NCBI GenBank assembly: GCA_021604805.1
Contig: BQJR01000004.1
Span: 513,794-577,793, forward strand
Origin: Planctomycetota bacterium
GTDB taxonomy: Bacteria > Planctomycetota > B15-G4
DNA length: 64,000 nucleotides
Reading direction: 5' to 3'
A model generated the notes under the pieces. That model was not told where the DNA came from, searched no databases, and saw nothing but the letters and a program-made list of their open reading frames with translations. Numbering within the stretch: position 1 is the stretch's first letter; each line of letters begins with the position of its first letter. This document shows positions 7,424 to 62,508 of this stretch, one piece after another. Position numbers and translations under genes: made by a program.

Positions 7424-7615
7424 GGCAACCGGGCAAGGGGCGGGACCACTCCTCGCGCCGCGATTGACAGGCCCGGTGACCGCGGTACCGTGGCCGCATC
7501 GTGTGGGGCGAGACGGTCGGTAAGTCTCCGACAGCAACGTCACGTTCGACGCGGTGAACGCGCCGGGCAGCGCAGGACGACTCGGCGTGCATCCTTCTCC
7601 GGAGCCACGAGTCGC

Positions 7616-10171
7616 ATGCAGATCCTTCGAACGTCCGCGCGCCACATCGCCCGTCACGCACTCGGCGGCGCCGCGCTCGCCGCATTGCTCGCCGCCCCGC
7701 TGCAAGCGAACGATTCCTTCCTGGTGACGACCCCCGGCTCGCCGGGCACTGCTGGCCTCGTCCCCGAACTGGCCGGCAGCGGACCAGGGACGCCGGGCTC
7801 CACCACCAACTCACTGCGTCTCAGCGAAGCCCTCCCCGTCAGCGCCGCCGTGGCCGTGGTGGGCTTCAGCCAACTGGCCGCGCCGTTCAAGGGCGGCGTG
7901 CTCGGCCCCACGCCCGATTTCCTCCTCGTCGGGTTCGCGACCGACGCCGAGGGCACGCTCGAGGTCCCGTTCAGCATCCCGGCCTCGCTGCCCTTGGCGA
8001 CCCAGATCCTGACCCAGTTCTGGATCGCGGACGCCGGCGCGAGTGCGGGCTTTGCGTCGAGCAACTCGGTGCTCCTTCGCGTGCGCTCGCACGCGAGCCT
8101 CGAAGCTCTGTATCCCAGAGCCAGCTATCTGGTCGGCAACTCCCCGCGCGCCGTCGCGAGCGCCGACCTGAACGCCGACGGGGTGCTCGACCTCGTCGTC
8201 GCGAACCACCAGAGCAACTCGGTGTCGAGCCTGCTCGGCAAGCCAGCCGGCGGGTTCGAGGCCGCCAAGCACTTCCAGGCCGGCGACAACCCGAGCGCCG
8301 TCGCGATCCACGACCTCGACAACGACGGCGTGCCCGACCTCGCCGTGACGAACGAGGGTTCGGGCCAGGTGTCGGTACTGCGTGGCCTCGGCTTCGGCAA
8401 CTTCATGCCGCCGCAGGGCTTCGCGGCGGGCGACAAGCCACGCGGCGTGGCCGTGGGCGACTTCGACGGCGACGGCTGGGCCGACCTCGCCGTGGTGAGC
8501 GAGACCTCGCGCGACGTGGCCGTGCTCCGCGCCGACGGGCTCGGCGACTACGAGCTCTTCGATCGTCATCAGGTCGGCCAGAAGCCCAACTCGATCGTGA
8601 CCGCCGACTTCGACGGCGACGGCGCGCTCGACCTCGTCACGGCGAACTTCGACTCCGACGACATCTCGGTGCTGCTCGGCCTCGGCGACGGCACCTTCGC
8701 CACGCCCGTGCACACCGGCGTGGGCAACGGCGCCTACTTCCTCGCCGCCGACGACCTCGACGACGACGGGAACATGGACCTCGCCATCGCCGTGCGCGCC
8801 GGCGACAGCGTGCGCGCCTTCTACGGTCAGGGCGACGGCAGCTTCAACTCGATCTTCAACTCGCTGGTCGGCGACCAGCCCCACTCCGTGACCATCGCCG
8901 ACCTCGACGGCGACGGCACCCCCGAGCTCGTCACCACGAACATCGCCGACGAAACGCTCACCATCCTGCAGGCTCAGAACGGACTCTACGAAGCTGTGCA
9001 CACCTTCCCGATCGGGCCGACGCCCATCGCCGCCGTGTCGGGCGACTTCGCGGGCGACGGCGAGCTCGACCTCGCCGTCGTGTCACTCAACGGTAACAAG
9101 GTGTCCGTGTTGACCGGCGACGGCGCGCTGAGCTTCGACGAACACCCCACGGTCTTCGCCGGCGAAGCCACGAGGCGCGTGGTGTCCGGCGACATCAACG
9201 GCGACGGCCACACCGACCTCGTGGCGTTGCTCGTCGACGGCCCCGACAGCCTCGCGACCCTGCTGGGCGACGGCCTCGGCGGCTTCGGTGCCGCCACCAC
9301 GGTCTTGGACGCGGGCTTGATCTCCGACATCTGGCTCGCCGACCTCGACGGCGACGCCGTGCTCGACATCTTGTTCCACGAGTCGGCCTCCGGCATCGTC
9401 GGTGTCGCGCTAGGTGCCGGCGACGGCAGCTTCGGTACTGTGCAGCAGTCCACGACGCCCCCCACCGCCACGCGCCTCACGCTCGGCGACGTGAACCTCG
9501 ACGGTCTGCCCGACCTCGCGTTCCCCGTGAGCTCCACGATCAACATGGTCGGGGTGATGCTGAACGCCGGCGACGGCAGCTTCGGCGCGGCGCAGACCTT
9601 CGTGTCGGGCTTCGGCCCCACCGACTTGGCCATCGCCGACATGAACGGCGATGGGCTGCCCGACCTCACTGTGGCGAACGCGAACGCCGGGCGCGTCGTG
9701 GTGTTGCCGGGGCTGGGCGACGGCAGCTTCAGCGCGGCGCTGCCCGGGATCCTCGCGGACGGCGCGCCGCACACCATCAACATCGCCGATCTCGACGTCG
9801 ACGGTGTGCCCGACGCGCTCGTCGGCGTGGGCAACACGCTGCGTGTGATGCGCGGCCTTGGCGGCGGCGTGCTCGACGCCCCGCAGACGCTCACCGACCT
9901 CGTCGGCGCGCACCTCCAGATCGTCGACGTGAACGCTGACGGGATCGTGGACCTCGTGAGCTTCCTCGCGATCCAGCGGGACGTGCTCGTCACCGCGGGC
10001 CTAGGTGGCTTCGAGTTCGCGACGCCACAGTCGTTCTCCGTGGGTCCCGATCTCTACCAGGGTGTCGTCGACGACTGGAACAGCGACGGCGCCCCGGACA
10101 TCGCCGTCGCACTGGGCGACATCCGGCGGATCGCCCTGCTGTTCAACCAAGCGGGAGCCGACAAGCCGTAG
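7616..10171 (+). CDS. Secreted FG-GAP/VCBS repeat protein
   Basis: The signal peptide is MQILRTSARHIARHALGGAALAALLAAPLQA. More than 10 repeats of the 'DLNADGVLDLVVAN / DFDGDGWADLAVV / DLDGDGTPELVTTN' type are present. Confidence 0.85.
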   Translation: MQILRTSARHIARHALGGAALAALLAAPLQANDSFLVTTPGSPGTAGLVPELAGSGPGTPGSTTNSLRLSEALPVSAAVAVVGFSQLAAPFKGGVLGPTPDFLLVGFATDAEGTLEVPFSIPASLPLATQILTQFWIADAGASAGFASSNSVLLRVRSHASLEALYPRASYLVGNSPRAVASADLNADGVLDLVVANHQSNSVSSLLGKPAGGFEAAKHFQAGDNPSAVAIHDLDNDGVPDLAVTNEGSGQVSVLRGLGFGNFMPPQGFAAGDKPRGVAVGDFDGDGWADLAVVSETSRDVAVLRADGLGDYELFDRHQVGQKPNSIVTADFDGDGALDLVTANFDSDDISVLLGLGDGTFATPVHTGVGNGAYFLAADDLDDDGNMDLAIAVRAGDSVRAFYGQGDGSFNSIFNSLVGDQPHSVTIADLDGDGTPELVTTNIADETLTILQAQNGLYEAVHTFPIGPTPIAAVSGDFAGDGELDLAVVSLNGNKVSVLTGDGALSFDEHPTVFAGEATRRVVSGDINGDGHTDLVALLVDGPDSLATLLGDGLGGFGAATTVLDAGLISDIWLADLDGDAVLDILFHESASGIVGVALGAGDGSFGTVQQSTTPPTATRLTLGDVNLDGLPDLAFPVSSTINMVGVMLNAGDGSFGAAQTFVSGFGPTDLAIADMNGDGLPDLTVANANAGRVVVLPGLGDGSFSAALPGILADGAPHTINIADLDVDGVPDALVGVGNTLRVMRGLGGGVLDAPQTLTDLVGAHLQIVDVNADGIVDLVSFLAIQRDVLVTAGLGGFEFATPQSFSVGPDLYQGVVDDWNSDGAPDIAVALGDIRRIALLFNQAGADKP

Positions 10172-10204
10172 GCTGTCGGCGGAGTGGGTTGCATCGGGAG
10201 CGGG

Positions 10205-10239
10205 TGAGTGAGACGGGCGCAGTCGCAGCCCCTCACTCA
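10205..10239. terminator. Hairpin between convergent gene ends (8-bp stem TGAGTGAG / CTCACTCA, 19-nt loop)
   Basis: 10205-10212 pairs with 10232-10239. It overlaps the kynA stop codon and has no U-tract. A terminator role is inferred only from position. Confidence 0.35.
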
Positions 10240-12285: not shown

Positions 12286-12323
12286 ACGAAGACTCCAACG
12301 ATGAGTTCGGGGTGGGTGGTGCG

Positions 12324-12470
12324 GGGCGCCGATGAGCGTGGCGCGGAGACTGGTGTTGTGAGGGGAGGTGCAGGGCGCCGATGAACGTGGCGCGGAGACT
12401 GGTGTTGTGAAGGGAGGTGCAGCGCGCCGGAAATCGACGCGCGGAAACTGGTGCTGTTCGGGATCCTGCC
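12324..12470. repeat. Three tandem ~49-bp direct repeats in the divergent mscS / CoA-ligase intergenic region
   Basis: Units 12324-12372 and 12373-12421 differ at 2 positions (GGGCGCCGATGA[G/A]CGTGGCGCGGAGACTGGTGTTGTGA[G/A]GGGAGGTGCA). The third unit, 12422-12470, is degenerate. Confidence 0.8.
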
Positions 12471-33375: not shown

Positions 33376-34427
33376 GCGCCGCGCTGCTCGGCTTCGGCGC
33401 GGCCTGGCCGCCCCACGAACTCAGCGCCGCGCGTTGCGTCGAGTTGCTCGCGAGCTGCACGCGCGTGCCCGAACGCACGCTCCGCGCACTCGTGCGTCGC
33501 TCGGGCGTGAACACACGTCGCGTGGTGCTCCCGACCGAGGGCGAAGCGGGCTTGCGCGAACTGCTGCAGAGCGAAGCCCCCCGCGGCCCCGGCACCGCGC
33601 GTCGCATGCAACTGTTCGCGCAACACGCGCCGCCGCTCGCCGAAGCCGCCGCGCGCGAGGCCTTGCTCGAGGCCCGAGTCCACGCCGGCGCGATCACCCA
33701 CCTCGTGTGCGTGAGTTGCACCGGTTTCGTGGCGCCCGGCCTCGACCACGCGTTGAGCACCGCGCTCGCGCTGAGCCCCGACGTGCAGCGCACCCAGGTC
33801 GGCTTCATGGGTTGCCACGGCGCGCTCAACGGGCTGCGTGTGGCCCAGGCCTTCGCCGAACAGAACGCACGTCATCGCGTGCTCTTGGTGGCCGTGGAGC
33901 TGTGCAGCCTGCACGTCCAGACGGATCCCGACAACGCGCAACTCGTGTCCAACCTGCTCTTCGGCGACGGCGCCGCCGCGGTGCTGCTCGCTTCCGAAGG
34001 GAACGGGCCGCGTCACGTGGGCGGCGCCAGTCACTTACTGCCCGACAGCGCTGAGCTCATGAGCTGGCGCATCGGCGACGCGGGTTTCGAGATGGGCCTC
34101 TCTGCCGAAGTGCCGGCCGTGCTGCGCGCGACCCTGCGCCCTTGGGTCGACGCGCAACTCGCCGCCCACGCGCTCACCCGCAACGACGTCGGTGCTTGGG
34201 CGGTGCACCCCGGCGGCCCGCGCATCCTCGACGCCGTGGAGCAGGCGCTCGAGCTCCCGCGCCGCGCACTCGCTGCCTCGCGTGAGTTGCTCGCCACGCG
34301 CGGCAACATGTCGTCGCCCACGGTGCTCATGTTGCTGCGCGGGTTCGCCGCAGCCGACACGCCGCGCCCGTGGGTGGTGCTGGCCTTCGGGCCCGGGCTC
34401 AGCGCGGAACTGGCGTTGCTGACGTAG
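33372..34427 (+). CDS. Type III polyketide synthase (chalcone/stilbene synthase family)
   Basis: The catalytic triad contexts are 'VSCTGFVAPG' (Cys), 'WAVHPGGPRIL' (His) and 'GNMSSPTVL' (Asn). The ATG overlaps the upstream stop (ATGA). Confidence 0.9.
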   Translation: MSAALLGFGAAWPPHELSAARCVELLASCTRVPERTLRALVRRSGVNTRRVVLPTEGEAGLRELLQSEAPRGPGTARRMQLFAQHAPPLAEAAAREALLEARVHAGAITHLVCVSCTGFVAPGLDHALSTALALSPDVQRTQVGFMGCHGALNGLRVAQAFAEQNARHRVLLVAVELCSLHVQTDPDNAQLVSNLLFGDGAAAVLLASEGNGPRHVGGASHLLPDSAELMSWRIGDAGFEMGLSAEVPAVLRATLRPWVDAQLAAHALTRNDVGAWAVHPGGPRILDAVEQALELPRRALAASRELLATRGNMSSPTVLMLLRGFAAADTPRPWVVLAFGPGLSAELALLT

Positions 34428-34496
34428 GCACGCGTCGGCACGCGTTGGCACGCGTCCGCACACGTGGGCGCGCGTCGGTCGGCGTCGGCGCGCGTC
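34427..34496. repeat. Seven tandem 10-bp units (GGCACGCGTC and variants) filling the whole space between two convergent stop codons
   Basis: The units are GGCACGCGTC GGCACGCGTT GGCACGCGTC CGCACACGTG GGCGCGCGTC GGTCGGCGTC GGCGCGCGTC. The first G overlaps the TAG of the PKS gene, and the last bases overlap the MarR stop. Confidence 0.85.
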
Positions 34497-43319: not shown

Positions 43320-45623
43320 ATGCACACAGCTTGCTGCCACCTCGTCGCGGCGCGCCGGTTTCGTTTCGGCGCGACGACTCCAGGACGCCGTGACGCGCGG
43401 ACTCCCGAGCGCGTCGTCGTGCAGGCTCCAGGGGGCCATGTCGCGCTGACTCCGGGGCACTTCGTCGCGCGGGCTCCAGAGCGCTTCCTCGCGCGGATCC
43501 GCATCGGGCTGCTCAGCGTGGTCTCGTTCGCGACACTCGGCGCGGTGCTGAATGCACAAGCCGGCGAGCTGCCGGAGCAGGAGCGCGACGGCCGTGTGTG
43601 GTCCTTTGCCGCGGACCCCGGTGAGCTCGACGGCCTCTCGCAACTCGGTGACGAGTCCGACGACCTGCCGCGCCCCGTGCTCCTCGCCGGCGACGCCGAT
43701 GCCGACGGCGACGGCGTGCCCGACCTCGCGATCGCCTCGCCCGGCACCGACGAAGTCCGCGTGCACTCGGGCAAGACCGGCGCGCTGCTCAGCACCCTCG
43801 CCAACCCGTCCCCCGGGCTCACCTTCGGGCGCGAGATCGCCTTCGCCGGCGACACCAACGGAGATGGCCGCAGCGAGATCCTGATCGGCTTCGGCGCGGA
43901 ACTCGGCGGCGCGCTGTCCACGGGCGGCGGCGCCGAGGGAGTCTCCGACCGCGGTGTGCAGCTCTTCGCGCTCGAAGGTGGCGACGCCCTGCACACACTC
44001 GATGAGATCGACGACGCGCTCGCCTTCTGCGGCCTCGGCGATGTCAACGGCGACGGCTTCTCCGACTACGCCGTCGCGCGGCACGACTCACCGATGGGCA
44101 TGCGCAGCGTGGAAGTGCGCTCGGGCGCCACGTCGGCCGTGATCCGCACGCACAGTCAGCTCATCGACGACAACGCCTTCCTCGACTTCGGCGCGCGCGT
44201 GGCCGGCGTGGGCGACCTGAACGCCGACGGCGTGCCCGACCTCGCCGTGTCTGCGCCCGGAGCCGAGCTCGCCATCGACGAAGGCGGCGCGCTACCGCTC
44301 GCGGGTCGCGTGCTCGTGTACTCGGGCGCGAACGGCAGCGAGCTGCTCGACATCGCGGGCCCCGCCGGCGGCGCGCGCTTCGGCCTCGCGTTGCGCGCCG
44401 CCGGTGACCTGAACGGTGACGGCACCCGCGACCTGGTCGCCTTCAGCCAGAGCGAGAACCCCTTCGAGCTGCTCACCGGGAGCGTGCACGCCGTGTCGGG
44501 CTCCGACGGGAGCGAACTCTTCCAGGTGCAGAGCTCGCTGGCCACGTCGGGCTCCGATGCGGCTGGCAACATGCTCGGTTCCGGCCGCTTGGTGGATGCC
44601 TGCGGCGCGGGCGATGTGAACGGCGATGGCTTCGACGACGTCGTCGCCGCCGTGATGCTCGACGCCGGTCTCGACGCGCCGGCCCTGCGTGTGTTCTCCG
44701 GTGTCGACGGGAGCTTGCTGCGCGGCCTCGCGCTGCCCGACGGCGAAGGCGTCGTGCTCGTCTCGCCCGCCGGAGACCTGAACGGCGACGGTCACGCCGA
44801 GCTCGCCGTGACCACGCGCGGAGCAGGCGGCGCGGCCGGTCTCGCGCAGGTCGTGTTCGGCGGCGACCCGTGGTTCGGCACGCTCGGCGACCGCGTGCAG
44901 CACATCACCAGCCCCGACGCGAGCGACGCGTTCTTCTTCGCAGCCGTGAAGGGCACGCGCCTCAAAGCCGCGCTCAAACGCCTGAAGCAAGGCACGCTGC
45001 TCCCCGCGCTCGACGTGATCGGCCCGCTCCCGTTCACCGACTCACTGATCGGCGAGCAGCCGCTGCTCGCTGCGAACGGCAAGTCGGTGAAGTTGCCCAA
45101 GAACTTCACGCTGCCCGACACCGGCGTCTATCGCATCGAGGTCTCGGCGGGTGACGGCAACGCAGGCGCCTACCAACTCAAAACGAGCGGCGGCAAACCG
45201 AAGGTGTCCGGCGTGATCGACGCCGGCGGCCCCGACGACGAGCCCCCGGTGGTGCTGCCGGGCCAGAAAGTGATCGGCACAGTGGAAGCAGGCGAGGTCA
45301 CCTCCACCGTGGTCCCCGCCGTAGCCGGTTCCGAAATCACCATCACCGTGAAGCGCGGCAAGGGCAGCGCCCTCAACCCCGAGTTCGGCCTGCTCTTCCA
45401 AGGCGTCACCGACCTGATCTTCATCTTCCCCGAAGGCACCGCGATCAACCCCAAGACCGCCCGAGTCAAAAAGTTCACCCTCCCCGAAACCGGCCTCTAC
45501 CGCATCGAAGTCAGCGGCGCCAACAACAGCGCCGGAACCTTCACCCTCCGCACAAAACAAAAGCCCCCAAAAGGCAAAACAAAGTCAAAGCTGCCCACCC
45601 CCCTAAACCAAACACCCCAATAG
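43320..45623 (+). CDS. FG-GAP repeat protein with two C-terminal PPC-like beta-sandwich domains (start uncertain)
   Basis: 'DADADGDGVPDLAIASPG', 'DTNGDGRSEILIG', 'DLNADGVPDLAVSAPG', 'DVNGDGFDDVVAA'. The C-terminal duplicated blocks are 'FTLPDTGVYRIEVSAGDGNAGAYQLKT' and 'FTLPETGLYRIEVSGANNSAGTFTLRT'. The hydrophobic signal-like segment (LLSVVSFATLGAVLNAQA) sits ~60 aa after the listed ATG. Confidence 0.75.
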   Translation: MHTACCHLVAARRFRFGATTPGRRDARTPERVVVQAPGGHVALTPGHFVARAPERFLARIRIGLLSVVSFATLGAVLNAQAGELPEQERDGRVWSFAADPGELDGLSQLGDESDDLPRPVLLAGDADADGDGVPDLAIASPGTDEVRVHSGKTGALLSTLANPSPGLTFGREIAFAGDTNGDGRSEILIGFGAELGGALSTGGGAEGVSDRGVQLFALEGGDALHTLDEIDDALAFCGLGDVNGDGFSDYAVARHDSPMGMRSVEVRSGATSAVIRTHSQLIDDNAFLDFGARVAGVGDLNADGVPDLAVSAPGAELAIDEGGALPLAGRVLVYSGANGSELLDIAGPAGGARFGLALRAAGDLNGDGTRDLVAFSQSENPFELLTGSVHAVSGSDGSELFQVQSSLATSGSDAAGNMLGSGRLVDACGAGDVNGDGFDDVVAAVMLDAGLDAPALRVFSGVDGSLLRGLALPDGEGVVLVSPAGDLNGDGHAELAVTTRGAGGAAGLAQVVFGGDPWFGTLGDRVQHITSPDASDAFFFAAVKGTRLKAALKRLKQGTLLPALDVIGPLPFTDSLIGEQPLLAANGKSVKLPKNFTLPDTGVYRIEVSAGDGNAGAYQLKTSGGKPKVSGVIDAGGPDDEPPVVLPGQKVIGTVEAGEVTSTVVPAVAGSEITITVKRGKGSALNPEFGLLFQGVTDLIFIFPEGTAINPKTARVKKFTLPETGLYRIEVSGANNSAGTFTLRTKQKPPKGKTKSKLPTPLNQTPQ

Positions 45624-45873
45624 CAGTCGCAGTCGCAGTCACAGTTGCAGTTGCAGCGCAGCCACAGTCGCTGCCGCTGTGCAGTTGCCGTTGCCGTTGC
45701 AGTTGCCGTCGCTGTCTGTCCCAGCGTCACCGGCCGTGTCACGGCGGCGCGCGCCGGGGAACGCTGCGAAGGAATGTTCGAGCCGAAGGCGAGCCATTCC
45801 TTCGCAGCGTTCCCCAGGCAGCGCCGCACGAGGCCCGTCCCGAGTGCGCCAGCCCCGAGTGCGCCAGCCCCTT
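45624..45873 (+). repeat. Composite long-hairpin intergenic repeat, copy A (reference orientation)
   Basis: A hexamer array (CAGTCG/CAGTTG/GTTGCC) spans 45624-45718. A perfect 21-bp inverted repeat follows: GGGGAACGCTGCGAAGGAATG (45756-45776) and CATTCCTTCGCAGCGTTCCCC (45795-45815), with an 18-nt loop. The outer flanks GCGGCGCGCGCC / GGCAGCGCCGC extend the stem. CGAGTGCGCCAGCCC occurs twice at 45841-45870. The element fills the whole gap between the two convergent stop codons. Confidence 0.85.
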
Positions 45874-55032: not shown

Positions 55033-55210
55033 CTGCCGGACTGCGGCTGGCGCACTCGTCACGGGCCTCGGCCGGCGCTGCCTGGGGATGGGCGCTGCCG
55101 GACTGCGGCTGGCGCACTCGTCACGGGCCTCGGCCGGCGCTGCCTGGGGATGGGCGCTGCCGGACTGCGGCTGGCGCACTCGTCACGGGCCTCGGCCGGC
55201 GCTGCCTGGG
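55033..55210. repeat. Perfect 62-bp tandem repeat, 2.9 copies
   Basis: The unit is CTGCCGGACTGCGGCTGGCGCACTCGTCACGGGCCTCGGCCGGCGCTGCCTGGGGATGGGCG. It starts at 55033, 55095 and 55157, and the copies are identical where they overlap. The array starts immediately after the NYN gene stop. Confidence 0.9.
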
Positions 55211-55290
55211 AAGCGCTGCGAGAGGAATGGCTCGCCTGCGGCTCGAACATTCCTTCGCATCGCTTCCCGGCGCGCGCCGGAGTGGACGGG
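55033..55290 (-). repeat. Composite long-hairpin intergenic repeat, copy B (inverted relative to A)
   Basis: The hairpin arms are GGGAAGCGCTGCGAGAGGAATG (55208-55229) and CATTCCTTCGCATCGCTTCCC (55248-55268). The loop GCTCGCCTGCGGCTCGAA is the reverse complement of the copy A loop with 1 change. The ACTGCGGCTGGCGCACTC motif occurs 3 times within the 62-bp array. Confidence 0.85.
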
Positions 55291-55469
55291 GGGAACTGCA
55301 CCAGCCGGTTTCGGGGTCGCCTGAAGAAGAACGGTGTTTGCGCGTGAGGTACTCCGCCGCGTGACGGTTCATCGCCAGCGCTCATGTCCGTGTCGACTCA
55401 AACGGCAATGCGCGCTCCACGCCGCGACGGCGCAGCTCCCACCGCAAGCGGTTCGCCGCTCGCGATGCA

Positions 55470-55502
55470 CGGCTCACGGCTCGCAGTTCGCAGTTCGCTG
55501 TC
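55470..55502. repeat. Heptamer array (CGGCTCA CGGCTCG CAGTTCG CAGTTCG CTGTC)
   Basis: Read directly. It lies between repeat copies B and C. Confidence 0.6.
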
Positions 55503-55559
55503 TTTCCCCCGCGAGCAAGCACTGATCCCACCGAGTGTCGCAAGCGCCAGCACGCGTCT

Positions 55560-55749
55560 CGCAGCCGCAATCGCTGTCTGCTGTTTGCTGTTCCCGGCGC
55601 CACCGATTCCGTCACCGGCGGTGCGCGCCGGGGAACGCTGCGAAGGAATGTTCGAGCGAAGCGAGCCATTCCTCTCGCAGCGTTCCCCAGGCAGCACCGC
55701 CCGAGGCCCGCAACAAGTGCGCCAGCGCAGTTCAGCAGTTCAGCTGTTC
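55560..55749 (+). repeat. Composite long-hairpin intergenic repeat, copy C
   Basis: The arms are GGGGAACGCTGCGAAGGAATG (55630-55650) and CATTCCTCTCGCAGCGTTCCCC (55667-55688, one extra C). Then come AGGCAGCACCGCCCGAGGCCCG, AAGTGCGCCAGCGCAGTT and GCAGTTCA x2. The tail overlaps the last codons of the VOC gene. Confidence 0.8.
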
Positions 55750-56555
55750 GCCCCCGAGCAGTCCTTCCCACCAACCGCAACAGGATCATGCTGGAACAAA
55801 CAAACGTGCGCCCCCGTCGGGTCCGCGATCATCGTGAACTGTCCGACTTCGGGGATCGGCATCACCGGCACGACCGTCGTCGCACCGAGTTCCATCGCCT
55901 TCGCGAGCGACGCGTTCACGTCGATCACGTTCACGTAGTTCATCCAGTGCGGGGGCGCTTCGCCGGCTTCGGGCGGCAGTTGCATGCAGCCGCCGGTGTG
56001 CTTGTCGCCCTTCATCCACATGGTGTAAGTGCCCATCTCGCCCATGTCGGTGTCTTGGATCTCCCAGCCGAACAGCTTGGTGTAGAAGGCTTTGGCGCCG
56101 GCTGTGTCGGTGGTCATCAGCTCGGTCCAGCAGAAGGCGTGGTTGTCCATGTCGCCGAGCGGCGTGCCGCAGCGCTTGCCTTCCTGGAAGGCTGAGAGCG
56201 CGGCGCCTTGCGGGTCGGCGAACACGACCATGCGGCCCACGTCGGGGATGTCCATCGGCGGCATGAGCACCTTGCCGCCGAGCTCGGTGACCTTGGCGGC
56301 GGTGGCGTCGACATCGGCGGAACGCACGTAGGGCATCCAGTGCGACGGCACACCTTCGAACATCGGGCCGGACATGCCGTAGAGGCCGCCCACGTCTTTA
56401 CCGTCGAGTTTGAGTTCGTGGTACGTGCCGTGCTCACCCATGTCCTTCGGTTCGGATGTCCAACCGAAGAGCGCGCCGTAGAACGCGAGCGCCGCGTCGG
56501 CATCGGTGGTGGCGAGCTCGAACCAGCAGAAGCGTCCGGGTTCAGCGTTGGTCAT
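55740..56555 (-). CDS. Two-domain VOC (glyoxalase/bleomycin-resistance/dioxygenase) family protein
   Basis: Internal duplication: 'FCWFELATTDADAALAFYGALFGW' and 'FCWTELMTTDTAGAKAFYTKLFGW'. 'HWMPYV' and 'HWMNYV' were also seen. Confidence 0.85.
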   Translation of the reverse strand: MTNAEPGRFCWFELATTDADAALAFYGALFGWTSEPKDMGEHGTYHELKLDGKDVGGLYGMSGPMFEGVPSHWMPYVRSADVDATAAKVTELGGKVLMPPMDIPDVGRMVVFADPQGAALSAFQEGKRCGTPLGDMDNHAFCWTELMTTDTAGAKAFYTKLFGWEIQDTDMGEMGTYTMWMKGDKHTGGCMQLPPEAGEAPPHWMNYVNVIDVNASLAKAMELGATTVVPVMPIPEVGQFTMIADPTGAHVCLFQHDPVAVGGKDCSGANS

Positions 56556-56827
56556 GGGGTCTCTCCGAGAAACGGCGCGCGCCTGCGGCCGGTGTCGTGA
56601 CGTGAAGGATCGAGCGCGACAGGAAACGCGCGCGAGCGCGGCGAGTCTACACCGCAGTCATCACAGCGTGGGCGCGCAGCCTGACGCAAGCAGCGCGGCG
56701 CCGCCAGGAACTGTCGCATTCCTTCAAGCGGGGTCCTGTGACCACAAGAGTTGACGCGCAGTCGGCGACCATTGCGCGCGCCAAGGCGTGTTGCGCGCGT
56801 TGGCGGACGGCACCGTGCACGCGTGAC

Positions 56828-56867
56828 ACTGCGGAACTGCGGCACTGCGGCACCGCGACACCGCGAA
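56828..56867. repeat. Octamer array ACTGCGGA ACTGCGGC ACTGCGGC ACCGCGAC ACCGCGAA
   Basis: Read directly, just downstream of the acs stop. It shares the ACTGCGGC string with the motif of repeat copies B and D. Confidence 0.6.
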
Positions 56868-56901
56868 ACGGTGGCGGCATGGCAGCGCCACACACCGCGA
56901 C

Positions 56902-61716: not shown

Positions 61717-62020
61717 GTGTCGTGCGCGAGGGGGCCTTGAACTGCGGCTGGCGCACTCAGGGAGGGCCTTGAACTGCGGCTGGCGCACTCGGGGAGGGCC
61801 TTGGCCGGCGCTGCCTGGGAAGTGTTGCGAGAGGAATGGCTCGCTGCGCTCGAACATTCCTTCGCAGCACTTCCCGGCGCGCGCCGTGGTGGCTCGCTCG
61901 CGGGGGCGACGGGGACAGCTGCTGCGGCTGTGACAGAAACGGCGACTGCAACGGCCACGGCAACGGCCACTGCAACGGCCACTGCAACGGCCACTTCAAC
62001 AGCAACTACAACTGCAGCTG
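61717..62020 (-). repeat. Composite long-hairpin intergenic repeat, copy D (inverted relative to A)
   Basis: A 32-bp tandem GGGCCTTGAACTGCGGCTGGCGCACTC[A/G]GGGA occurs 2.3 times (61732-61803). The hairpin arms are GGGAAGTGTTGCGAGAGGAATG (61817-61838) and CATTCCTTCGCAGCACTTCCC (61855-61875). A 12-mer/hexamer array (GGCCACTGCAAC)n spans 61941-62020. Confidence 0.85.
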
Positions 62021-62058
62021 GGGAGCGATTCTCTTGCGGCGCTCCTGCTGCTGCGCTG

Positions 62059-62508
62059 TCAGACCCCGAACTGTTTGAGGTGGTGGCAGAAGTGCTTGTA
62101 GGCCAGCCGTCCCCACTGATCGCCGCTGAGTGGGCCGAAGATCGGGTGCTTGCCCGTGAGTGGCAGCGGGCCGTTCTCCACGAGCGCGTCGAGCTCGCCG
62201 AGCAAGGCCTCGCGCTGCGCCTCGAACTCTTCGGCGTTCACCTCGGGCGTGAGGTAGGCGGGCGCCTTGACACCCTTCGGCAGCGGGATCGGGCCGATGA
62301 AAGCCCAGGCGATGAGCGAACGGTAGAGGCTGCTGCCGGGCGCCTTGCGCTGCGCATCGGGGTAGGCCAGCTGCAAGGCCTCGCGCAAGTGCCGCATGAG
62401 ACGCGCGGCGTCGAGCTTGCCCCAGCGCGGTTGCGTGTCGGGCGTGACCGCCGCCAGCCGCGCGTTGAGTTCGTCGAGCGAACCACCTTGGAACACGCTG
62501 CGCGTCAT
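62059..62508 (-). CDS. DinB-superfamily protein (DUF1569-like)
   Basis: 'PRWGKLDAARLMRHL' and the C-terminal 'HPIFGPLSGDQWGRLAYKHFCHHLKQFGV' are typical of DUF1569 as I recall it. The gene starts 4 nt after the glgC stop. Confidence 0.8.
   Translation of the reverse strand: MTRSVFQGGSLDELNARLAAVTPDTQPRWGKLDAARLMRHLREALQLAYPDAQRKAPGSSLYRSLIAWAFIGPIPLPKGVKAPAYLTPEVNAEEFEAQREALLGELDALVENGPLPLTGKHPIFGPLSGDQWGRLAYKHFCHHLKQFGV

What the first reader, a model, noticed from the sequence alone, without database searches (positions are those of the whole stretch)
45624..45873. Composite long-hairpin intergenic repeat family (4 copies in 64 kb), always between convergent gene ends
The same ~110-nt core occurs four times:
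- A, 45624-45873, + orientation
- B, 55033-55290, inverted
- C, 55560-55749, + orientation
- D, 61717-62020, inverted

The core is GGCGCGCGCC-GGGGAACGCTGCGAAGGAATG-(16-18 nt loop TTCGAGC..GCGAGC)-CATTCC(T)TCGCAGCGTTCCCC-AGGCAGCGCCG..GAGGCCC. In copy A the 21-bp arms are perfectly complementary. The flanks GCGGCGCGCGCC / GGCAGCGCCGC can extend the stem beyond 30 bp.

One side of the core carries 1-3 copies of the motif GAGTGCGCCAGCC(GCAGT). The other side carries hexamer/12-mer arrays (CAGTYG, GTTGCC / GGCCACTGCAAC).

Every copy lies in a gap between stop codons of convergent genes. These three gaps are the only long non-coding stretches in the window. Copy A fills its gap completely, from the TAG at 45621-23 to the minus-strand stop at 45874-76.

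No transposase, integrase or RT is nearby. The architecture is REP/BIME- or MITE-like, but I do not recognise the sequence as a described family. Possible roles are a bidirectional terminator or mRNA 3'-end stabiliser, a protein-binding nucleoid site, or a non-autonomous mobile element.
Basis: seen in the sequence. Interest (0 to 1): 0.7.

Follow-up and report, generated by a model that had tools for sequence, protein, structure and literature searches.

The report
Long-hairpin intergenic repeat family
Four copies of a ~110-base repeat that folds into a very stable ~34-base-pair hairpin fill the gaps between tail-to-tail genes in an uncultured marine bacterium; it is an undescribed family of a familiar kind of small non-coding repeat, gained and lost between close relatives, and most likely marks or protects transcript ends.

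Summary
A covariance model finds exactly four copies in the window (105-114 bits; the next hit scores 19). All four lie in three gaps between convergent genes. The shared core is 110-116 nt at 85-91% identity and folds into a 34-bp hairpin. Across six copies, 10 of 34 pairs carry compensatory double changes and none a one-sided change. Each copy also has a tail motif, GAGTGCGCCAGCC, duplicated 1-3 times with unit lengths of 15, 32 and 62 nt. GCNGTY simple-repeat arrays flank the core.

The source is NCBI MAG 'Planctomycetota bacterium DHS20C15'. Relatives show gain and loss. Site A is empty in one relative (4 nt between the stops, against 250). Site D holds an unrelated small ORF in another. 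The site after the NYN gene is occupied in two lineages and empty in two.

There is no Rfam match, no match in GTDB representative genomes, and no transposase within 26 kb. No TIR or GTAG tag is present, and target duplications could not be assessed.

Verdict: a new family of REP/Correia/ERIC-like non-autonomous repeats. It probably acts as a bidirectional 3'-end hairpin, but this function is inferred. Interest is modest.

The parts
45624..45873 (+). Copy A, whole element. It fills the entire gap between the FG-GAP gene stop (TAG 45621-23) and the membrane-protein gene stop (45874-76).
   Evidence: The orthologous junction in relative L010 is only 4 nt.
45623..45716 (+). Copy A: GCNGTY hexamer array, about 16 units.
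   Evidence: TRF; pattern scan, 37 matches against 6.7 expected.
45742..45837 (+). Copy A: hairpin core with perfect 21-bp upper arms. The stem extends to about 33 bp, followed by the CGAGGCCCG tail.
   Evidence: CM 104.7 bits. RNA fold -79.7 kcal/mol, z = -7.1. DNA fold -44.6 kcal/mol.
45839..45871 (+). Copy A: 15-nt tandem unit x2.2 carrying GAGTGCGCCAGCC twice.
55033..55290 (-). Copy B, whole element, inverted. It starts directly after the NYN gene stop.
55033..55210 (-). Copy B: 62-nt tandem unit x2.9 at 100% identity. Each unit holds the 3' lower-stem strand, CGAGGCCCG and the GAGTGCGCCAGCC motif.
   Evidence: TRF score 356.
55186..55282 (-). Copy B: hairpin core.
   Evidence: CM 108.3 bits; fold.
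55291..55559 (.). Spacer between the head-to-head copies B and C. It has no convincing gene and contains short GCAGTTC/GCTGTY runs.
   Evidence: ORF 55382-55789 has no Pfam hit.
55560..55749 (+). Copy C, whole element. It ends at the glyoxalase gene stop (55740-42).
55616..55710 (+). Copy C: hairpin core.
   Evidence: CM 114.1 bits; fold -75.5 kcal/mol, z = -6.9.
55715..55727 (+). Copy C: a single degenerate tail motif, AAGTGCGCCAGCG, followed by GCAGTTCA x2.
61717..62058 (-). Gap holding copy D, inverted, between the 292-aa ORF stop and the DinB_2 gene stop.
   Evidence: Relative L003 has an unrelated 400-nt filler with a 100-aa ORF here.
61732..61803 (-). Copy D: 32-nt tandem unit x2.2 carrying GAGTGCGCCAGCC twice.
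61795..61889 (-). Copy D: hairpin core.
   Evidence: CM 108 bits; fold.
61938..62012 (-). Copy D: 12-mer array (AACGGCCACTGC on the + strand, which is GCAGTG GCCGTT in element orientation) x6.2. It is 87-92% similar to part of copy A's array.

Best explanation
This is a previously uncatalogued family of small, non-autonomous, structured intergenic repeats. It is analogous to REP/BIME, Correia and ERIC elements and occurs in an uncultured lineage that NCBI labels Planctomycetota (MAG DHS20C15).

Anatomy of one element, in its own orientation:
- a (GCNGTY)n array;
- a ~40-nt flank;
- a ~86-nt hairpin with a 34-bp stem, conserved single-base bulges and a small GNA-capped apical stem;
- the tail CGAGGCCCG;
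- 1-3 copies of GAGTGCGCCAGCC;
- sometimes another array.

Shown: copies are gained and lost at gene 3' ends between related genomes, and the hairpin is kept intact by fully compensated changes on both arms.

Inferred: the elements sit between the stops of convergent genes, so both strands are transcribed into them. Either transcript would form a stem of -70 to -84 kcal/mol. The most likely effect is a bidirectional 3'-end structure that halts or pauses read-through into the antisense of the neighbouring gene. It would also protect the 3' ends from exonucleases, or present a long dsRNA substrate for RNase III. This genome's other convergent gaps carry unique GC-rich hairpins without U-tracts, so the repeat would fill the same niche.

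The mode of spread (trans-acting enzyme or recombination) is unknown.
For: Repeat family:
- Four copies at 105-114 bits, with nothing else above 19 bits.
- Core 110-116 nt at 85-91% identity.
- A fifth full copy in JGI contig L002. Partial copies at the ends of L006/L007 and L008.

Structure:
- 34 pairs, with 98.9% of cells paired.
- 10 pairs show changes on both sides, against 3.7 +/- 1.3 in shuffles (0 of 500 reach it). Versions with the 3' partner slid by 1-3 columns give 0-2.
- No pair shows a one-sided change.
- Both strands fold, z = -2.7 to -7.1.

Gain and loss:
- Site A: 250 nt in the window against 4 nt in syntenic L010.
- Site D: L003 is collinear on both sides, but the filler is unrelated.
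- NYN site: occupied in the same orientation in L006/L007 and L008. It is unoccupied in L005 (65-nt gap) and L012 (21-nt gap).

Position:
- All four copies lie in three of about twelve convergent junctions.
- The elements abut stop codons.

Genome context:
- Other convergent gaps carry unique hairpins without T-runs.
- Canonical terminators are not enriched, 9 found against 8.9 expected.
- No mobile-element genes were found in 20 neighbouring ORFs.

Analogy: in E. coli, REPs act as partial terminators and mRNA stabilisers in 3'UTRs. REPs between convergent genes there correlate with higher expression of both genes (bioRxiv 10.64898/2026.03.23.713779). REPs in many genomes sit between unidirectional or convergent ORFs (PMC3733652).
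Against: - There are no transcript data, so termination or stabilisation is pure inference.
- No U-tract follows either arm. The hairpin is therefore not a canonical intrinsic terminator, and whether a bare hairpin stops this organism's RNA polymerase is unknown.
- Only about 74 kb of the source genome could be examined. The genome-wide copy number and positional bias are unknown. All four copies lie within 16.4 kb, none lies in the first 45 kb, and none lies in the 10 kb to the right of the window.
- The L002 copy lies upstream of a gene start.
- Full Watson-Crick compensation without G-U intermediates can also arise without selection. Intrastrand template switching in quasi-palindromes would produce it (my own knowledge). 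Covariation therefore does not prove an RNA role.
- The conserved tail motif, its repeated independent duplication and the arrays are not explained by a simple terminator model.
Confidence: 0.55

Rival explanations
1. Purely selfish or neutral mobile DNA. A non-autonomous element is mobilised in trans, for example by an HUH/Y1 (RAYT or IS200/IS605-like) or other recombinase that recognises the hairpin with its conserved bulges and the tail motif. It is seen at convergent 3' ends only because insertions there are the least harmful. The hairpin is conserved for the enzyme, not for the host.
For: - Presence or absence at three sites among relatives.
- Asymmetric features conserved in four to six copies: a bulged base in the 3' arm, an A bulge in the lower stem, an invariant apical sequence and the tail CGAGGCCCG plus motif.
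- No TIRs, as expected for elements that move through hairpins in single-stranded DNA. Target duplications could not be assessed.
- Fully symmetric compensation.
Against: - No candidate enzyme lies within 26 kb, and the rest of the genome could not be searched.
- No GTAG/CGTC tag lies at the hairpin foot.
- Copies differ by 9-15%, so there is no sign of recent bursts.
- The NYN site is occupied in three diverged lineages, in the same orientation. This fits long retention.
Confidence: 0.3
2. A DNA-level site. The palindrome extrudes as a cruciform, or the tail motif and arrays bind a nucleoid, topoisomerase or recombination protein, as gyrase and IHF bind at E. coli BIMEs. This would organise supercoiling domains between converging transcription units.
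For: - Pairing is required on both strands, with no G-U/A-C asymmetry.
- The stable ssDNA hairpin folds at -33 to -45 kcal/mol.
- The exact 13-nt motif was duplicated independently three times, with different unit lengths of 15, 32 and 62 nt. This suggests that motif number matters.
- Convergent transcription builds up positive supercoils between such genes (my own knowledge).
Against:
- A recent E. coli study found no chromosome-compaction role for a model REP.
- The tandem duplications may simply be slippage next to a replication-stalling hairpin.
Confidence: 0.1
3. A family of small-RNA genes with their own promoters.
For: - A highly structured, conserved core.
- The forward orientation scores far higher than the antisense in the covariance model. 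This only reflects how the model was built.
Against: - No sigma-70-like promoter in the region.
- No Rfam match, even at E <= 1.
- The hairpin is symmetric on both strands.
- Orientation alternates relative to neighbouring genes.
- The elements abut stop codons, leaving no room for a promoter at site A.
Confidence: 0.03
4. Integron attC-like or other site-specific recombination sites marking gene cassettes.
For: An imperfect palindrome about 90 nt long, with conserved extrahelical bases, at gene 3' ends. It resembles chromosomal attC (VCR) repeats.
Against: - No integrase nearby.
- No RYYYAAC / GTTRRRY core sites at the stem foot.
- Orientation alternates + - + -.
- The copies are separated by multi-gene blocks of housekeeping genes that are syntenic in relatives lacking the element.
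Confidence: 0.01

Closest known systems
REP / BIME / REPIN elements (E. coli, Pseudomonas; GTAG- and CGTC-tagged families)
   Same: - Dispersed extragenic palindromes at gene 3' ends, enriched between convergent or co-directional genes.
- Variable between strains.
- Some copies occur as inverted pairs (B and C are head-to-head).
- Proposed to act as terminators and mRNA stabilisers.
   Different: - REPs are 20-40 nt with a GTAG or CGTC tag and a RAYT partner.
- Here the hairpin is about 86 nt with a 34-bp stem, and no tag.
- No RAYT is in view.
- There are extra modules: the tail motif and the arrays.
- The B-C spacing is about 330 nt, not a tight REPIN doublet.
Correia / NEMIS elements of Neisseria
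   Same: - Intergenic repeats of about 100-150 nt that fold into long hairpins when transcribed.
- They are co-transcribed with neighbouring genes, cleaved by RNase III, and can act as terminators or affect mRNA stability (my own knowledge).
   Different: - Correia elements have 26-nt terminal inverted repeats, a TA target duplication and an IHF site. They are AT-richer.
- No TIR is present here.
- There is no sequence similarity.
ERIC / IRU elements of enterobacteria
   Same: An imperfect palindrome of about 127 nt, in transcribed intergenic regions, with presence or absence varying between species (my own knowledge).
   Different: - No sequence similarity.
- ERIC lacks tandemly duplicated tail motifs and hexamer arrays.
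BOX elements of Streptococcus pneumoniae
   Same: Modular, composite intergenic repeats in which one module (boxB) varies in copy number, with predicted stable secondary structure (my own knowledge).
   Different: - Different modules and sequence.
- BOX has an A-B(n)-C architecture, with pairing between boxA and boxC rather than one long central hairpin.
Hairpin-only ('I-shaped') and bidirectional terminators
   Same: A GC-rich stem without a U-tract between convergent genes in a high-GC genome. One symmetric hairpin can serve both directions (my own knowledge; one search lists such literature).
   Different: - Those are unique sequences with stems of 5-15 bp.
- This is a 34-bp repeated element with conserved non-stem modules.
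- Termination by U-less hairpins is itself disputed.

Membership tests
REP (repetitive extragenic palindrome) / REPIN | Short palindrome of 20-40 nt | tested here: not met
   The hairpin spans about 86 nt with 34 pairs. The REP definition is from PMC3733652.
REP (repetitive extragenic palindrome) / REPIN | Conserved GTAG or CGTC tetranucleotide at the foot of the stem | tested here: not met
   There is no GTAG. CGTC appears upstream in B and C only, at variable distance, and is absent in A and D.
REP (repetitive extragenic palindrome) / REPIN | Associated RAYT (Y1 transposase) gene flanked by REPs in the genome | not testable with these tools
   None was found among 20 ORFs at 38-64 kb. The rest of the 588,845-nt contig and the MAG could not be read.
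REP (repetitive extragenic palindrome) / REPIN | High copy number (tens to hundreds per genome) | not testable with these tools
   Four copies in about 74 kb were examined. Contigs of five other assemblies end in or next to the hairpin. That is compatible with a multi-copy element, but palindromy alone could also cause it.
[quoted passage not shown] | Terminal inverted repeats at the element ends | tested here: not met
   The ends of A (CAGTCGCAGTC... and ...GCGCCAGCCCCTT) are not complementary. The inverted repeat is internal.
[quoted passage not shown] | Target-site duplication flanking the insertion | tested here: inconclusive
   Empty (L010) and filled (window) versions of site A were compared. 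The flanking codons have diverged too far to define a duplication.
[quoted passage not shown] | Related autonomous IS sharing the ends | not testable with these tools
There were no core matches in plasmids or viral contigs.
Integron attC site | R''/R' core sites (RYYYAAC ... GTTRRRY) and a nearby intI with a same-orientation cassette array | tested here: not met
   No core sites. No integrase. Orientations alternate.
Canonical intrinsic (Rho-independent) terminator | GC-rich hairpin followed by a U-tract | tested here: not met
   No T-run follows either arm on either strand. The scan lists no site at any of the four hairpin cores (its only two sites inside the elements, at 55561-55577 and 61958-61942, are small stems in the flanking arrays), and totals equal the shuffled expectation.
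Any Rfam RNA family | Score at or above the family's gathering threshold | tested here: not met
   0 hits at gathering thresholds over the whole window. Only chance-level hits to the arrays at E <= 1.

The most novel reading that the evidence does not exclude
The hairpin (with its conserved extrahelical bases and invariant apex), together with the GAGTGCGCCAGCC tail motif that has been independently amplified three times, is the recognition module of an as-yet-unknown trans-acting protein. That protein could be a new hairpin-directed recombinase or transposase that moves the element as single-stranded DNA. Alternatively, it could be a dedicated DNA- or RNA-binding insulator or termination factor whose occupancy is tuned by motif copy number. 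Either reading would make this a new element-plus-factor system in a poorly studied phylum, not just another passive palindrome.
Probability: 0.12. Interest if true: 0.6.

Novelty: new member of a known kind. Interest (0 to 1): 0.33.

Why it matters
Small structured intergenic repeats are well studied in a few proteobacteria and firmicutes but hardly at all in uncultured lineages of this kind. The paper searches made here found REP families reported from Planctomycetes but nothing resembling this element.

This family gives a concrete, model-searchable element (R1) with clear filled and empty orthologous sites. It can therefore be used in three ways:
- to study how high-GC bacteria without canonical terminators end convergent transcripts;
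- as a strain-typing and rearrangement marker;
- as a warning for assemblers, because five independent short-read contigs end in or next to it.

It does not overturn any current view. Its value is as a new, well-delimited example with unusual modularity.

Tried and rejected
- The exact-pattern scan of GTDB representative genomes gave one hit, in an Aminobacter coding region with no extended arms. I judged it chance. The source species is therefore not among the representatives.
- The JGI metagenome scan gave one true copy only.
- The viral-contig scan with a degenerate pattern gave 0 hits.
- Plasmid blastn matched only the hexamer array, to unrelated simple repeats in Enterobacter, Neisseria, Streptomyces and others. 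This is low-complexity similarity, not homology.
- Three exact-protein look-ups failed because the start codons were guessed wrongly. The region left of the window was therefore never seen.
- A coding reading of the arrays was considered. On the antisense strand they read as NNC codons, (N-G-H/N-C)n, within ORFs that start at the ATG in the hairpin (for example 61836-62078). I rejected it because the reading frame between the ATG and the array differs between A and D, and the start codon lies inside a 34-bp stem (read and translated by eye).
- The literature search for the MAG name found nothing.
- The REP-survey paper mentions Planctomycetes families, but no genus I searched for was named.
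- More distant relatives showed no copy and no comparable hairpin. This covers L004, L010, L011 and L012, about 75 kb in total.

Full report
**1. Observation**

- The 21-nt arm occurs five times at up to 3 mismatches, against 0 expected in 100 shuffles. In copy A it is present on both strands without mismatch.
- The repeat finder recovers the family as inverted and direct pairs of 43-108 nt at 83-91% identity. It also recovers A's own 33-nt arms at 88% complementarity.
- I built covariance model R1 from the four copies plus one metagenomic copy. It scores the four cores at 105-114 bits: A 45742-45837(+), B 55186-55282(-), C 55616-55710(+), D 61795-61889(-).
- The next-best hit in the 64-kb window scores 19 bits, so there are exactly four copies. 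All lie within 16.4 kb.
- Pairwise blastn puts the shared core at 110-116 nt and 85-91% identity. Outside it, only the simple-repeat arrays resemble one another.

**2. Anatomy**

In element orientation, each copy consists of:
- a (GCNGTY)n array, strong in A and D;
- a weakly conserved flank of about 40 nt (GCTGTY-CCCRKCGYCNCCG...);
- the hairpin;
- the invariant tail CGAGGCCCG;
- the motif GAGTGCGCCAGCC.

The motif:
- Its exact form occurs 7 times in the window, and only inside the elements. C has one degenerate copy.
- It has been tandemly duplicated independently in three copies, with different unit lengths: 15 nt in A, 32 nt in D, and 62 nt at 100% identity in B.

The hairpin:
- It has 34 pairs, an A bulge in the lower stem and a bulged C/T in the 3' arm. 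That second bulge is absent only in A, which is why A's arms are perfect.
- It has an invariant apex, TTCGAGC-(C)GNA(G)-GCGAGC, that forms a small capped stem.
- As RNA, the regions fold at -62 to -84 kcal/mol on either strand (z = -2.7 to -7.1). As DNA, the four window cores fold at -33 to -45 kcal/mol.

**3. Structure is conserved, not just sequence**

Across six copies, 98.9% of cells form standard pairs. Ten of 34 pairs carry changes on both sides, against 3.7 +/- 1.3 in shuffles (0 of 500 reach the observed value). Versions with the 3' partner slid by 1-3 columns give only 0-2 such pairs. No pair varies on one side only.

Examples of compensated changes:
- GGGGAACG:CGTTCCCC in A and C;
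- GGGAAGTG:CACTTCCC in D;
- GAGGGCG:CGCCCTC in L002;
- GGAATG:CATTCC changed to GAAGTG:CACTTC in L008.

The absence of G-U intermediates means that pairing is maintained on both strands. That fits three situations:
- transcription from both sides;
- a DNA-level hairpin or cruciform;
- non-selective palindrome correction by template switching (my own knowledge).

Covariation alone therefore does not prove an RNA role.

**4. Context**

The flanking genes are real and convergent:
- FG-GAP repeat protein(+) and a 622-aa membrane protein(-) around A;
- NYN(+) and glyoxalase(-) around B and C;
- a 292-aa ORF(+) and DinB_2(-) around D.

A crude GC3-based gene map gives about a dozen convergent junctions. 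The nine without the element are 16-100 nt. Several of those carry unique GC-rich hairpins without T-runs.

Canonical hairpin-plus-T-run terminators are no more frequent than in shuffled sequence, 9 against 8.9. No copy has a T-run.

None of 20 ORFs between 38 and 64 kb has a transposase, integrase or RT domain.

The claim that these are the only long non-coding stretches is not exact. For example, 56556-56901 is a 346-nt gap between co-directional genes.

**5. Source and relatives**

The membrane protein is 100% identical to 'MAG: hypothetical protein DHS20C15_32980 [Planctomycetota bacterium]', on a 588,845-nt NCBI contig. Named homologues of other genes are Planctomycetota MAGs (GlgC, about 75%) and Myxococcota MAGs (NYN, about 65%). 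I therefore take the phylum only as NCBI's label.

Orthologous sites:

| Site | Window | Relatives |
|---|---|---|
| A | 250-nt gap, fully occupied | L010 (Logan SRR15505515; syntenic over window 41.7-52.4 kb at 68-82% nt identity): the two stop codons are 4 nt apart |
| D | element D | L003 (Logan SRR14610180): collinear at 86% and 75% nt identity on the two sides, but the 400-nt filler is unrelated and encodes a 100-aa ORF |
| NYN | B and C | L006/L007 (82% protein identity) and L008 (80%): a related hairpin in the same orientation as B, starting at the stop codon, with the contigs ending inside it |
| NYN | B and C | L005 (94%): a 65-nt gap, then a different gene. L012 (72%): a 21-nt gap to the acetyl-CoA synthetase gene. 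Neither has the element |

No copy or comparable hairpin was found in about 75 kb from more distant relatives.

A Logan assembly of the source genome itself (L009) ends 21 nt past hairpin D. The 10 kb beyond the right edge of the window has no further copy.

The one complete metagenomic copy (L002) starts at the contig end and lies about 145 nt upstream of a lipoprotein-like gene start. The convergent rule is therefore not universal.

**6. Databases**
- Rfam: no hit at gathering thresholds. Only chance hits to the arrays at E <= 1.
- GTDB representative genomes: one chance hit.
- Viral contigs: none.
- Plasmids: only low-complexity matches to the hexamer array.
- Literature searches found no description.

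**7. Interpretation**

Shown:
- a dispersed, modular repeat family;
- a hairpin maintained by compensated changes;
- gain and loss at gene 3' ends among relatives;
- no autonomous machinery nearby.

Inferred: function. The best-supported reading is a REP/Correia-like, non-autonomous element that forms a very stable stem-loop when transcribed from either convergent gene. That stem-loop would limit read-through, protect 3' ends, or both. A near-perfect dsRNA of 34 bp is also a plausible RNase III substrate (my own knowledge). E. coli REPs have recently been shown to act as partial terminators and mRNA stabilisers. Between convergent genes they are associated with higher expression of both genes, and REPs generally favour convergent or co-directional gaps.

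Rivals:
- Purely selfish DNA, tolerated at 3' ends and mobilised in trans by a hairpin-recognising enzyme. It is favoured by the conserved bulges, apex and tail.
- A DNA-level protein or cruciform site. It is favoured by the symmetric pairing and by the repeated independent amplification of the 13-nt motif.

sRNA-gene, attC and coding readings were considered and are unlikely. The reasons are the lack of promoters and core sites, the alternating orientation, and the non-conserved reading frames.

**8. Membership and novelty**

The element fails the defining features of REPs (length, GTAG/CGTC tag) and of canonical terminators (U-tract). It lacks the terminal inverted repeats of MITEs, and target-site duplication could not be judged. 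It works like these families but belongs to none of them by sequence or by diagnostic features.

It is a new family of a well-known kind. The unusual details are the very long stem, the independently amplified tail motif and the flanking GCNGTY arrays.

A specialist would not be surprised by its existence. Interest is modest (0.33) unless a dedicated partner protein is found.

Noticed in passing
window 12314-12460: A 49-nt unit repeated x2.9 (86% matches), each unit holding a small GCGCC...GGCGC hairpin. It lies at a divergent gene junction and may run into the 5' end of the downstream + strand ORF. It could be an array of regulator-binding sites or a leader structure.
   Followed up: partly
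window 34423-34496: A 10-nt tandem repeat (CGTCGGCACG x7.4) fills a convergent gap and folds into a long hairpin (-52.6 kcal/mol). This is a different way of making a stem between convergent genes in the same genome.
   Followed up: partly
window 56825-56869: An 8/16-nt array (CACTGCGG x4.9; the reverse complement contains GCAGTG) lies about 30 nt downstream of the acetyl-CoA synthetase stop, with no hairpin core. GCAGT-type arrays therefore also occur at 3' ends outside the element. This may be a remnant of a lost copy or a general property of the genome.
   Followed up: no
window 10172-10236: The unique hairpin in this convergent gap carries GCGCAGTCGCAGCC in its loop, again the GCAGTC unit.
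   Followed up: no
window 45624-45720 (- strand) and 61836-62078 (+ strand): Read antisense to the element, the arrays are runs of NNC codons (DSDGNCNGNGNC; NGDCNGHGNGHCNGHC). They lie in ORFs that start at the ATG inside the hairpin. The frame between the ATG and the array is not conserved between A and D, so I judged them non-coding, but the perfect 3-nt periodicity is striking.
   Followed up: partly
window 45624-45716 against plasmid records: The GCAGTY hexamer array gives 74-94% blastn matches to simple repeats in unrelated bacteria (Enterobacter, Geoalkalibacter, Neisseria, Burkholderia, Sinorhizobium, Streptomyces). Some of those lie inside annotated hypothetical proteins. This type of hexanucleotide repeat is widespread.
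   Followed up: no
window 55033 (NYN stop); loci L005, L011, L012: Synteny among relatives breaks exactly at the NYN stop codon. The next gene is glyoxalase in the window, a 969-aa gene in L005, acetyl-CoA synthetase in L012 and a 107-aa gene in L011. This junction is a rearrangement hot spot, and the repeat may contribute to that.
   Followed up: partly
L003 5445-5747: In the closest relative at site D, a 100-aa predicted membrane ORF occupies the place of the element. It has no homologue anywhere in the window (tblastn).
   Followed up: partly
L002:1, L006:8083, L007:2399, L008:2796, L009:12014: Five independent short-read contigs (JGI and Logan) end inside or within about 20 nt of the hairpin. 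Either the element is multi-copy in those genomes or the long palindrome itself breaks de Bruijn assemblies. Either way, the family is under-sampled in metagenome assemblies.
   Followed up: partly
window 45747-45756, 55272-55281, 61879-61888: The 5' lower stem is the self-complementary 10-mer GGCGCGCGCC. It is alternating CG, so Z-DNA-prone, and contains GCGCGC. It is conserved in A, B and D, and differs by one base in C and L002.
   Followed up: no
window 7490-10171 and 43320-45623: Two large FG-GAP/VCBS-type repeat proteins. The first has a 147-nt periodicity over about 14 repeats. Their D-x-D-G-D coding repeats account for most of the direct-repeat families that the repeat finder reports.
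   Followed up: no
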